A stretch of DNA of 8,105 nt from a virus (lineage: Duplodnaviria; Heunggongvirae; Uroviricota; Caudoviricetes), in the IMG/VR virus record IMGVR_UViG_2737471826_000003, positions 1 to 8,105 of that record. One strand, 5' to 3'. Below, piece after piece: positions 5,194-6,126 of this stretch (position 1 is its first letter; the number at the start of each line of letters is the position of its first letter). The notes under the pieces are model-generated. The model saw nothing but the letters and a program-made list of their open reading frames with translations, made no database searches and was not told the DNA's origin. A program made the translations under genes and the position numbers.

Positions 5194-6126
5194 ATGCATC
5201 GTATAGACACTAAAACCGCGCAGAAGGATAAGTTCGGCGCGGGTAAGAACGGTTTTACCCGTGGTAACCACCAGACAGGCACGCCTGCCACCGATCTGGA
5301 TGATGACTACTTTGACATGTTGCAGGAGGAGCTTTGCAGCGTGGTGGAGGCATCCGGCGCCAGCCTGGAGAAGGGGCGGCATGACCAGTTGCTTACAGCG
5401 CTTCGTGAGCTGCTGTTAAGCCGCAAGAATCCGTTTGGCGATATCAAATCGGATGGCACGGTGAAAACGGCTCTCGAAAACCTTGGTTTGGGAGATGGCT
5501 CGGGGCGTTACAGCAAAACTGTCGTTTTTTCATCGTCGGGTTCATATACGTGGCCAGCTGACGTAAAACGAATTGACGTTATTCTGACTGCGGCGGGCGG
5601 CGGTGGCGGTGGATGTAACGCGGAGAACGCAAATCAGACATTTTCAGGGGCTGGCGGAGGAGCCGGAGGTACTGTTTTTGCCACTATTTATGCGACAGAC
5701 AACGATGCCGGGCCAGGAACCTATACAGTGACAATTGGCAGCGGTGGTAGTGGTGCCAATGGGGCAGGGTCTGGAAATAATGGCGGTAATAGTTCGTTCA
5801 TGACATTAACTGCGCTCGGCGGCCAGGGTGGGCAATGGGGCGGCGCTACAAATACCGCTGGCGGGCGCGGTGGCTCAGGCTCTGGCGGTTATAAAACTGA
5901 ACAAGGCGGAGACGGTTCAGACGGACAGGCGAGCCAGGCGCTATTAGTAGGCAATGGGGCATCGAGCTATTGGGGTGGCGGCGGCCGCGCTGGGCAACTG
6001 AGCGGTAATCCTGGAGTTTGCTCTGGCTCCGGCGGCGGGGGTGCATACGATAATAGCTATTCACACACGTCAGGACGTGGCGGGCACGGAGCTAATGGCG
6101 TGCTGGTAATTCGGGAGTACATGTAA
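5194..6126 (+). CDS. Tail fibre protein: conserved N-terminal attachment domain plus glycine-rich variable distal domain
   Basis: 310-aa ORF with SD GGAG 7 nt upstream. The N-terminus ([22 protein letters not shown]...TALENLGLG) is the conserved N-terminal domain of enterobacterial prophage tail fibres (StfP/YcfK-like, recalled). The C-terminal two-thirds is very glycine-rich low-complexity sequence ([38 protein letters not shown]). The TAA stop is immediately followed by the chaperone ATG. Confidence 0.85.
5471..5496 (+). other. Candidate DNA-invertase (Gin/Hin/Cin/Pin-type) crossover site inside the tail-fibre gene
   Basis: CTCTCGAAAACC TT GGTTTGGGAGAT is an imperfect 12-bp dyad (9 of 12 positions complementary) around a 2-bp core. 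It resembles the recalled hix/gix consensus (TTCTnnAAAACC-AA-GGTTTTnGATAA). It encodes ALENLGLGD, exactly at the junction between the conserved N-terminal and variable distal parts of the fibre. Confidence 0.4.

What the first reader, a model, noticed from the sequence alone, without database searches (positions are those of the whole stretch)
5471..5496. Invertase crossover-like dyad at the constant/variable junction of the tail-fibre gene
CTCTCGAAAACC-TT-GGTTTGGGAGAT has the half-site spacing and core of Gin/Hin/Cin/Pin recombination sites (AAACC ... GGTTT around a 2-bp core). It lies where the conserved N-terminal fibre domain (up to ...[10 protein letters not shown]) gives way to the glycine-rich distal domain, which is where Mu, P1 and e14-type fibres carry their inversion site. 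No partner site in inverted orientation and no recombinase gene is present in the window, so the switch would be frozen.
Basis: partly seen in the sequence, partly recalled or inferred. Interest (0 to 1): 0.5.

Follow-up and report, generated by a model that had tools for sequence, protein, structure and literature searches.

The report
Orphan invertase site in tail-fibre gene
The 26-bp dyad is a real but orphaned copy of the e14 prophage crossover site for tail-fibre gene inversion, left in a prophage that has lost the partner site and the invertase; this is an ordinary relic of a well-known system.

Summary
The sequence is exactly as described at 5471-5496. It differs by one base (25/26 identical) from pixL, the experimentally verified left crossover site of the invertible P segment of E. 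coli prophage e14. Its two half-sites and TT core match Mu gix and P1 cix.

It spans codons 93-101 (ALENLGLGD) of an intact 310-aa tail-fibre gene. Homology with other fibres stops at its right edge. 1864 of 5426 E. coli genomes carry the constant part and only 66 continue past it. All 57 truncated matches in a 60-row spread sample end inside the site or within 7 nt after it.

A 45-codon relic of an inverted tail-fibre-assembly gene lies at 6503-6640 on the minus strand. It overlaps the forward gene by 29 nt, as in e14 and phage SKA5, so an invertible segment once existed. The relic abuts the 3' end of a P22-type tailspike gene and a gtr O-antigen-modification module, which fill the place where the second fibre end, partner site and invertase should be.

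No partner site or invertase exists in the window or in near-identical complete prophages. E. coli K-12 prophage CPS-53 has the same frozen layout. Novelty and interest are low.

The parts
5471..5496 (+). Orphan pix-type crossover site: 12-nt half-site, TT core at 5483-5484, 12-nt half-site. It encodes A93-D101 (ALENLGLGD).
   Evidence: 25/26 identical to e14 pixL; alignment with gix, cix and SKA5 sites; 26.4 bits against a shuffle maximum of 16.0.
5194..5496 (+). Constant N-terminal part of the tail-fibre gene (the Sc equivalent, StfP/YcfK-type), about 95% identical across E. coli prophages.
   Evidence: present in 1864 of 5426 genomes, and matches end at the site.
5497..6126 (+). Variable distal part of the fibre (the Sv equivalent), a glycine-rich domain (Pfam Gly_rich_2). 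The reading frame is intact.
   Evidence: this module with its downstream genes occurs in only 77 of 5426 E. coli genomes.
6127..6531 (+). Tail-fibre assembly chaperone gene (the U equivalent) that belongs to the expressed orientation.
   Evidence: Caudo_TAP, E 4.6e-33; annotated as tail fiber assembly protein in L001.
6503..6640 (-). Relic of the inverted second assembly gene (the U' equivalent, TfaE-like). Only the last 45 codons remain. It overlaps the forward gene by 29 nt, as in e14, SfIV and SKA5.
   Evidence: 67% identity to e14 TfaE residues 156-200, E 2e-12. PGAP annotates it as a pseudogene missing its N-terminus in L001 and E. coli 042.
6641..6787 (+). 3' end (about 43-48 codons) of a P22-type tailspike gene. 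It marks the left edge of the foreign DNA that occupies the place of the rest of the invertible segment.
   Evidence: 99% DNA identity from window 6704 onward to the tailspike end and gtrC of E. coli PSS-11 (L045).
6833..7722 (-). 3' part of a gtrC-type serotype-specific glucosyltransferase gene, cut by an insertion sequence. It lies where the partner site and invertase sit in e14 and SKA5.
   Evidence: an intact 1488-nt gene at L001 26817-28304, followed there by gtrB, gtrA, intS and tRNA-Arg. One search shows the same layout in L046.
7723..8105 (-). End of an IS5-family element (ISKpn26-like) that interrupts gtrC and ends the contig.
   Evidence: IS5 transposase model; 99% identity to ISKpn26 copies; DDE_Tnp_1.

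Best explanation
The 26-mer is a fossil left-hand crossover site (pixL type) of a Pin/Gin/Cin-family tail-fibre inversion switch. It now works only as coding sequence for the linker between the constant baseplate-proximal part and the receptor-binding distal part of the fibre.

Inferred ancestral state, as still seen in e14 and phage SKA5: fibre constant part, site, distal end A, chaperone A, then chaperone B and distal end B on the other strand, an inverted partner site, and an invertase gene. By analogy with Hin, Gin and Cin, that gene would also have carried the Fis-dependent enhancer. Invertase dimers on the two sites would synapse at the enhancer on supercoiled DNA, cut at the central TT/AA dinucleotide, rotate and religate. 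This would swap which distal end and chaperone are fused to the constant part.

In this lineage a recombination event put a block made of a P22-type tailspike 3' end plus gtrC-gtrB-gtrA in the place of everything to the right of codon ~45-from-the-end of chaperone B. With the partner site, invertase and enhancer gone, the gene is locked in the orientation that expresses the glycine-rich distal end.

Shown here: sequence identity, the breakpoint position, the relic, and the absence of partner and invertase. Inferred: the past inversion activity, the order of events, and the present inertness.
For: Site identity: 25/26 to e14 pixL. The only difference is the outermost base (A to T, Glu to Asp). 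e14 pixR, pinE and the 1797-bp P segment are experimentally verified (PMC12529663; PMC4272514). The half-site/core layout is shared with Mu gix and P1 cix, which lie at the annotated G- and C-segment boundaries inside the S genes.

Breakpoint: the alignment is near-identical up to the last base of the site and unrelated after it, in four different distal modules. The same holds in phages and in all 57 truncated rows of a 60-row spread sample from 1864 genomes.

Relic: 45 codons of a TfaE-like gene lie on the minus strand with the family-typical 29-nt tail-to-tail overlap.

Graded series of decay in relatives: complete switch in e14, L027 and SKA5; 171 residues of inverted chaperone matching TfaE in SfIV; 95 residues in K-12 CPS-53 (tfaS); 45 here and in E. 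coli 042; none in SfV.

Replacement DNA: tailspike 3' end plus gtrC, 99% identical to a P22-like prophage.

Absence: no second site above chance level and no invertase in the window, L001 (47.7 kb) or L046.

DNA-level constraint on the site in 15 diverged homologues: the site uses the otherwise rare Leu codons CTC (10/13 against 11/158 elsewhere), CTT (11/15 against 18/158) and TTG (9/15 against 27/158).
Against: No experiment shows that a Pin-family enzyme binds or cuts this exact 26-mer, and the effect of the terminal A-to-T change is untested.

The window is a complete 8.1-kb contig of a draft assembly. The rest of that genome was not examined, so a remote partner or a trans-acting invertase is not excluded.

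The LGLG peptide is conserved in distant homologues that have no linked invertase, so part of the conservation is at protein level.

The codon-usage p-values are inflated by shared ancestry. The weight-matrix score is partly circular because the matrix contains pixL.
Confidence: 0.85

Rival explanations
1. The site is still a live substrate. A Pin-family invertase encoded elsewhere in the genome acts in trans and pairs it with an inverted site in another prophage. This would invert a large chromosomal segment or exchange distal fibre modules between prophages.
For: PinQ, PinR and PinE all invert the e14 P segment, so these enzymes act in trans across prophages. The site scores like functional sites. 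Rare codons that keep the DNA motif are retained in lineages with no linked invertase. E. coli genomes can hold up to 3 copies of the constant part with its site. K-12 has two identical 26-mers in inverted orientation.
Against: Invertases of this family need a Fis-bound enhancer and two sites in one supercoiled domain, and they give intramolecular inversion only (PMC3798978). The enhancer normally lies in the invertase gene, which is missing here. A genome-wide inversion screen of K-12 found only the e14 P-segment inversion, with the false-negative probability for a 1:100 variant put at about 0.04 at x100 coverage, although K-12 holds the orphan CPS-53 site about 1.26 Mb from pixL. The closest complete genome has a single copy of the constant part with its site (H186).
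Confidence: 0.06
2. The dyad is only a by-product of a conserved linker peptide (L-x-N-L-G-L-G). The fibre modules were shuffled by ordinary homologous recombination in the conserved N-terminal block, and no invertase was ever involved in this lineage.
For: The LGLG peptide is conserved in homologues of about 50% identity that have no nearby invertase. An ~80-bp block ending at the site occurs alone inside other, longer fibre genes, which is what homologous exchange would use (rows H234-H244; L040). Functional phages SfV and SfIV carry the 26-mer of e14 pixL without an invertase.
Against: The site is 25/26 identical to a proven crossover site. A minus-strand chaperone relic sits in the family-typical position. 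The close relative SKA5 has the complete switch on the same backbone. The inner half-site GGTTTGGGAGA is conserved in front of unrelated distal modules. Codon choice inside the motif departs from the rest of the gene in the direction the DNA motif requires.
Confidence: 0.06
3. A chance palindrome with no biological history.
For: The 12-nt core alone is expected 0.2 times per window.
Against: The full 26-mer is never matched in shuffles, and its weight-matrix score is far above the shuffle range. The position, homology and synteny evidence also argue against chance.
Confidence: 0.01

Closest known systems
e14 prophage P segment of E. coli K-12 (pixL and pixR, stfP/ycfK-tfaP-tfaE-stfE, pinE)
   Same: The same upstream genes (a baseplate J/gp47-family gene, pseudogene jayE in e14, and ymfQ). 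The same constant fibre part. A 26-mer identical at 25/26 positions, at the same codons. The same tail-to-tail 29-nt overlap of the two chaperone genes.
   Different: e14 keeps the complete second chaperone, the second distal end, pixR and pinE, and it inverts. The window keeps only 45 codons of the second chaperone and has a different, glycine-rich distal end.
CPS-53 (KpLE1) cryptic prophage of E. coli K-12: yfdL, yfdK, tfaS (pseudogene), yfdI/H/G, intS at argW
   Same: The same frozen layout: fibre with orphan site, chaperone, truncated inverted chaperone, gtrC/B/A, integrase. Close relatives of the window's prophage use the same attachment site.
   Different: CPS-53 has lost its tail and baseplate genes, and its fibre gene is itself a pseudogene. 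Its inverted chaperone relic is longer (95 residues matching TfaE) and its distal end is different. Its 26-mer is identical to pixL.
Escherichia phage SKA5 (an isolated SfV-like phage with a complete switch)
   Same: SfV-type Mu-like baseplate genes, the constant fibre part and the left site.
   Different: SKA5 retains the right site (TTCTCCCAAACCAACCTTTCAAATAT), the second distal end and chaperone, and a DNA invertase, followed by its integrase. It has no gtr genes at that position.
Shigella serotype-converting phages SfV, SfI, SfII and SfIV
   Same: The same tail module and a gtr module directly downstream. None has an invertase in the fetched or matched region. SfV and SfIV carry the pixL 26-mer (1 mismatch to the window site); for SfI and SfII only the match of the constant part up to the site was seen.
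   Different: Their distal end is different. SfV has no inverted-chaperone relic, and SfIV has a nearly complete one (171 of 200 TfaE residues matched). The SfIV paper reads that gene as an extra assembly protein and does not mention inversion.
Mu G segment (gix/Gin) and P1 C segment (cix/Cin)
   Same: The same site architecture (AAACC-NN-GGTTT flanked by 7-nt outer arms), located inside the fibre gene at the constant/variable boundary. The invertases are about 78-83% identical to PinE.
   Different: The fibre proteins are unrelated or only distantly related to this one, the outer half-site sequences differ, and the Mu core is TC. Both switches are complete and active.

Membership tests
Pin/Gin/Cin/Hin (Din-family) invertase crossover site, pix subtype | A 26-bp imperfect dyad: two 12-bp half-sites around a 2-bp core | tested here: met
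   The half-sites agree at 9 of 12 positions, and the core TT is the same as in pixL, pixR, cixL and cixR.
Pin/Gin/Cin/Hin (Din-family) invertase crossover site, pix subtype | Sequence match to experimentally used sites | tested here: met
   25/26 to e14 pixL. The inner 16 nt differ at one base from the repeat reported to flank the inverting P segment. The weight-matrix score of 26.4 bits lies within the 20.9-29.0 range of functional sites.
Pin/Gin/Cin/Hin (Din-family) invertase crossover site, pix subtype | Binding and cleavage by a Din-family invertase | not testable with these tools
   Needs a gel-shift or cleavage assay, or an in vivo inversion assay.
Active invertible tail-fibre segment (P, G or C segment type) | A second site in inverted orientation in cis | tested here: not met
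   No other match at up to 3 mismatches or up to 7 mismatches. No other weight-matrix hit of 8 bits or more in the window. The next best hit in the 47.7-kb relative L001 is 10.4 bits, which is chance level.
Active invertible tail-fibre segment (P, G or C segment type) | An adjacent serine invertase gene (which in Hin, Gin and Cin carries the enhancer) | tested here: not met
   tblastn with PinE finds nothing in the window or L001. The gene lists of L001 and L046 show gtrC/B/A and the integrase in that position.
Active invertible tail-fibre segment (P, G or C segment type) | An alternative distal fibre end and chaperone on the opposite strand | tested here: not met
   Only a 45-codon C-terminal relic of the chaperone remains at 6503-6640 (-), and there is no second distal end.
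Active invertible tail-fibre segment (P, G or C segment type) | Site at the constant/variable junction of the fibre gene | tested here: met
Active invertible tail-fibre segment (P, G or C segment type) | Both orientations present in a population | not testable with these tools
   Needs read-level data from the source strain (assembly GCA_000798415.1).
SfV/CPS-53-type serotype-converting prophage | Mu-like baseplate and tail genes followed by fibre, chaperone, then gtrC-gtrB-gtrA, integrase and a tRNA attachment site | tested here: met
   Pfam Phage_Mu_Gp48 for the gene upstream of the fibre. The same order is seen in the near-identical L001 and L046, in SfV, and in K-12 CPS-53. The window itself ends inside gtrC.

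The most novel reading that the evidence does not exclude
Orphan pix sites like this one are not dead. They would be kept at the DNA level as docking points that let trans-acting Pin-family invertases, from other prophages or from infecting phages, occasionally swap distal fibre modules between elements or invert large chromosome segments. That would explain why the rare codons needed for the DNA motif persist in lineages with no linked invertase, and why nearly all E. coli fibre mosaics break at this site.
Probability: 0.07. Interest if true: 0.55.

Novelty: new member of a known kind. Interest (0 to 1): 0.15.

Why it matters
The result mainly serves annotation and evolutionary bookkeeping.

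- It explains why PGAP splits this fibre gene at the site into a "StfP pseudogene" and a "glycine-rich protein" in many genomes.
- It explains the stray tail-fibre-assembly pseudogene, which is tfaS in K-12.
- It shows one concrete way a host-range switch is lost: an O-antigen-modification module now fills the place of half the invertible segment and the invertase. The prophage then expresses a single receptor-binding end.

The site also marks where distal fibre modules are exchanged in about a third of the E. coli genomes searched. That is useful for engineering or predicting the host range of SfV/e14-type phages. It does not open a new question.

Tried and rejected
- A second site was sought with exact and mismatch searches, with a core-pattern scan, and with a weight matrix. 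The searches covered the window and the 47.7-kb relative L001. Nothing scored above chance.
- An invertase was sought by tblastn with PinE in the window and in loci L001-L040. It was found only in e14-like loci and 689R6, and as fragments in L011, L015 and L024. SKA5's invertase came from the phage-collection search.
- I considered that the plus-strand ORF at 6641-6787 might be the missing second distal fibre end. This was rejected: it is on the wrong strand and is the C-terminus of a P22-type tailspike. Pfam gives no hit for it.
- I considered that ybcK, the "recombinase family protein" at the left end of L001, might be the invertase. PinE gave no tblastn match in L001 at E 1e-5 or better. 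That it is a large serine recombinase of the integrase type rests on my own knowledge.
- The promoter/terminator scan of 5000-7000 gave nothing relevant.
- The SfV genome paper, the e14 analysis paper (Mehta et al. 2004), Plasterk and van de Putte 1985, and a paper looked up as PMC4384473 (which I took to be Johnson's review of invertases) are not held. The older literature on crossover sites as fibre-module boundaries (Haggård-Ljungquist 1992, Sandmeier 1994) is cited from memory only.

Full report
**1. Observation**

The 26-mer CTCTCGAAAACCTTGGTTTGGGAGAT is at window 5471-5496 on the + strand. It lies in an intact 310-codon ORF (5194-6126). It runs from the second base of codon 93 to the last base of codon 101, which read A-L-E-N-L-G-L-G-D. 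The central TT is at 5483-5484. The two half-sites agree at 9 of 12 positions.

The 12-nt core alone could be chance: 0.2 matches are expected per window, and 37 of 200 shuffles have one. The whole 26-mer could not. There is no other match at up to 3 mismatches and none in 200 shuffles.

A half-site weight matrix made from the e14, SKA5, Mu and P1 sites scores it 26.4 bits. Functional sites score 20.9-29.0. The best score in 100 shuffled windows has median 8.7 and maximum 16.0. The matrix contains pixL, so this test is partly circular.

**2. Context**

The window is a complete 8105-bp contig of a draft E. coli assembly (JUCU01000122.1, GCA_000798415.1). It carries Mu-type baseplate genes: DNA circularisation protein, baseplate hub, gp45, gp46, gp47 and gp48/YmfQ. 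These are followed by:
- the fibre gene;
- a tail-fibre-assembly (chaperone) gene at 6127-6531 (Caudo_TAP, E 4.6e-33);
- on the minus strand, a gtrC-type glucosyltransferase gene cut by an IS5-family element.

In a 100%-identical complete genome (L001), and in a contig encoding the identical fibre protein (L046), the region continues with gtrC, gtrB, gtrA, intS and yfdC. L001's annotation also shows tRNA-Arg between intS and yfdC. This is therefore an SfV/CPS-53-type serotype-converting prophage at argW.

**3. The site is an orthologue of e14 pixL**

In E. coli K-12 prophage e14 the syntenic fibre gene (ycfK/stfP, downstream of ymfQ) carries CTCTCGAAAACCTTGGTTTGGGAGAA at the same codons. This is 25/26 identical. 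The only change is the outermost base, which turns Glu into Asp. The partner TTCTCCCAAACCAACGTTTATGAAAA lies just before pinE.

Inversion of the 1797-bp P segment between TTGGTTTGGGAGAAGG repeats, by PinE, PinQ and PinR, has been shown experimentally (PMC12529663). It is also seen as phase variation in K-12 cultures (PMC4272514).

The same layout (outer arm, AAACC, 2-bp core, GGTTT, outer arm) is found at two other places:
- the annotated G-segment boundaries inside Mu gene S;
- in P1, next to cin and inside the large S gene, where the C-segment ends would lie.

**4. The homology break coincides with the site**

Aligned with e14, SfV, SfIV and phage 689R6, the sequence is almost identical up to the last base of the 26-mer. 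From the next base on it is unrelated, and four different distal modules follow. Phage matches (SfV, SKA5, 720R4) end at query 302, which is window 5495.

Across complete E. coli genomes, 1864 of 5426 carry the constant part and only 66 continue into this distal module. In a 60-row spread sample, all 57 truncated matches end at query 287-310. The site is query 278-303.

The inner half-site GGTTTGGGAGA is thus shared by otherwise unrelated distal modules. That is what a recombinase-binding requirement predicts.

**5. A relic of the invertible segment**

On the minus strand, 6503-6640 encodes [45 protein letters not shown]. This matches the last 45 residues of e14 TfaE (67% identity, E 2e-12). 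It overlaps the forward chaperone gene tail-to-tail by 29 nt. The two chaperone genes of e14, SfIV and SKA5 overlap in the same way. PGAP calls it a tail-fibre-assembly pseudogene missing its N-terminus.

Homology to tfaE stops at about 6631-6644. The next 147 nt (6641-6787, + strand) are the C-terminal ~43-48 codons of a P22-type tailspike. From 6704 onward they are 99% identical to the tailspike end and the adjacent gtrC of a P22-like prophage in E. coli PSS-11.

Most of the second chaperone gene, the second distal end, the right crossover site and the invertase gene are therefore missing. A tailspike-end-plus-gtr block lies in their place.

**6. Relatives form a graded series**

| State | Examples |
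|---|---|
| Complete switch (both sites, both gene sets, invertase) | e14, a Shigella flexneri prophage (L027), isolated SfV-like phage SKA5 |
| Partial | SfIV: 171 residues of inverted chaperone matching TfaE, no invertase. K-12 CPS-53: 95 residues matching TfaE (tfaS), and an orphan 26-mer identical to pixL in yfdL. This window, L001 and E. coli 042: 45 codons |
| No relic | SfV, L009, L010 |
| Invertase fragments only | L011, L015, L024 |

In L015 (Scandinavium) an acyltransferase gene lies between a truncated chaperone gene and the last 74 codons of the invertase. This looks like an independent case in which an accessory (moron) gene took the place of the switch.

The tfa'/tailspike junction is shared by E. 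coli 042, whose prophage carries a different gene in the gtrC position and lies next to ybhB/bioA in that genome. Most of the 60 sampled genomes that carry this distal module also list two tail-fibre-assembly features under the match. The loss is therefore probably old relative to the spread of this module.

**7. No partner and no invertase**

Nothing was found in the window. Nothing was found in the 47.7 kb around the identical prophage: the best other matrix score there is 10.4 bits, which is chance level, and PinE gave no tblastn hit. The gene list of L046 shows none either. The closest complete genome holds a single copy of the constant part with its site (H186). The remainder of the source draft genome could not be searched.

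**8. Is the motif held at the DNA level?**

The peptide L-x-(N/Y)-L-G-L-G is conserved in homologues down to about 50% identity from Kosakonia, Edwardsiella, Enterobacter, Lonsdalea and others. None of these has a complete invertase gene within the fetched flanks; only L024 (Edwardsiella hoshinae) has a 26-residue fragment.

In 15 diverged sequences the three Leu codons inside the motif are the rare ones that the DNA motif requires:
- CTC in 10/13, against 11/158 of Leu codons elsewhere in the domain;
- CTT in 11/15, against 18/158;
- TTG in 9/15, against 27/158.

The Fisher p-values are 2e-8, 4e-7 and 6e-4. Shared ancestry inflates these values. The contrast with the rest of the same gene still suggests DNA-level constraint, or repeated recent association with invertases. 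Some lineages have drifted, for example L030 (CTG GGA TTG) and L019 (TTA GGT TTG).

**9. Mechanism**

Established for the family (PMC3798978): two dimer-bound sites and a Fis-bound enhancer assemble an invertasome on supercoiled DNA, and intramolecular inversion is the only product.

Inferred here: the ancestor of this prophage switched between two distal fibre ends in this way. After the replacement event, the site lost its partner, its enzyme and its enhancer. It persists because it encodes the linker of a fibre gene that is still intact. The prophage is locked into expressing the glycine-rich end and its chaperone.

**10. Could it still act in trans?**

Pin enzymes do act across prophages. 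K-12 holds two identical 26-mers in inverted orientation about 1.26 Mb apart: e14 pixL on the + strand and CPS-53 yfdL on the - strand. However, a genome-wide inversion screen of K-12 found only the P-segment inversion; the authors put the false-negative probability for a 1:100 variant at about 0.04 at x100 coverage. The enhancer requirement also argues against efficient long-range events. I give this rival about 6%.

**11. Verdict**

It is another instance of a well-known kind of site, in a frozen state that also exists in E. coli K-12 (CPS-53: yfdL, yfdK, tfaS) and in the SfV phage family. The SfI and SfIV genome papers do not mention inversion. The idea that crossover sites mark fibre-module boundaries even in phages without invertases is old (Haggård-Ljungquist 1992 and Sandmeier 1994, cited from memory and not checked here). 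Interest is low.

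Noticed in passing
window 6641-6787 (+): A 48-codon ORF is the C-terminal end of a P22-type tailspike (...YYDTTLGLPIWYNGTASSWQRADGTNT*). It is fused to the relic of the inverted chaperone gene. It seems to have arrived together with the gtr module from a P22-like phage.
   Followed up: yes
window 6833-8105 (-): The gtrC-type glucosyltransferase gene is interrupted at about 7722/7723 by an IS5-family (ISKpn26-like) element that runs to the contig end. The gene is intact (1488 nt) in L001, so serotype conversion by this prophage is probably lost in the source strain.
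   Followed up: partly
window 1-16: The first 16 nt (TGAGGGGATCTCTCAG) do not match the otherwise identical L001 sequence. They look like the reverse complement of an IS10 terminus (from memory only). If so, the contig is bounded by insertion sequences on both sides, and the OB-fold gene upstream of the DNA circularisation gene is interrupted.
   Followed up: no
window 5419-5501: An ~80-bp block ([24 protein letters not shown]) that ends at the site occurs on its own inside other, longer E. coli fibre genes, including those of O157:H7 prophages (rows H234-H244; L040). It looks like a portable junction cassette.
   Followed up: partly
L015 9950-12740 (Scandinavium hiltneri): A homologous glycine-rich fibre is followed by a 64-codon truncated chaperone gene, an acyltransferase on the opposite strand, and only the last 74 codons of an invertase. 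This appears to be an independent case of an accessory gene taking the place of the inversion switch.
   Followed up: partly
L044 4698-5630 (E. coli 042) and many rows: In E. coli 042 PGAP splits the fibre gene near the site into a 'StfP pseudogene, missing C-terminus' and a separate 'glycine-rich domain-containing protein', and many other rows list both names. In L001 the same gene is annotated as one intact CDS. This is probably an annotation artefact of the module boundary, though a frameshift in 042 was not checked.
   Followed up: no
L050 7884-7909 (-) = NC_000913.3 2471883-2471908: K-12 cryptic prophage CPS-53 carries, in pseudogene yfdL, an orphan 26-mer identical to e14 pixL. It is inverted relative to pixL and lies about 1.26 Mb away. 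tfaS is the counterpart of the inverted-chaperone relic in the window.
   Followed up: yes
window 5497-6126: The distal fibre end is a glycine-rich domain (Pfam Gly_rich_2, E 7e-19). With its downstream genes it occurs in only 77 of 5426 complete E. coli genomes. Its receptor specificity is unknown.
   Followed up: no
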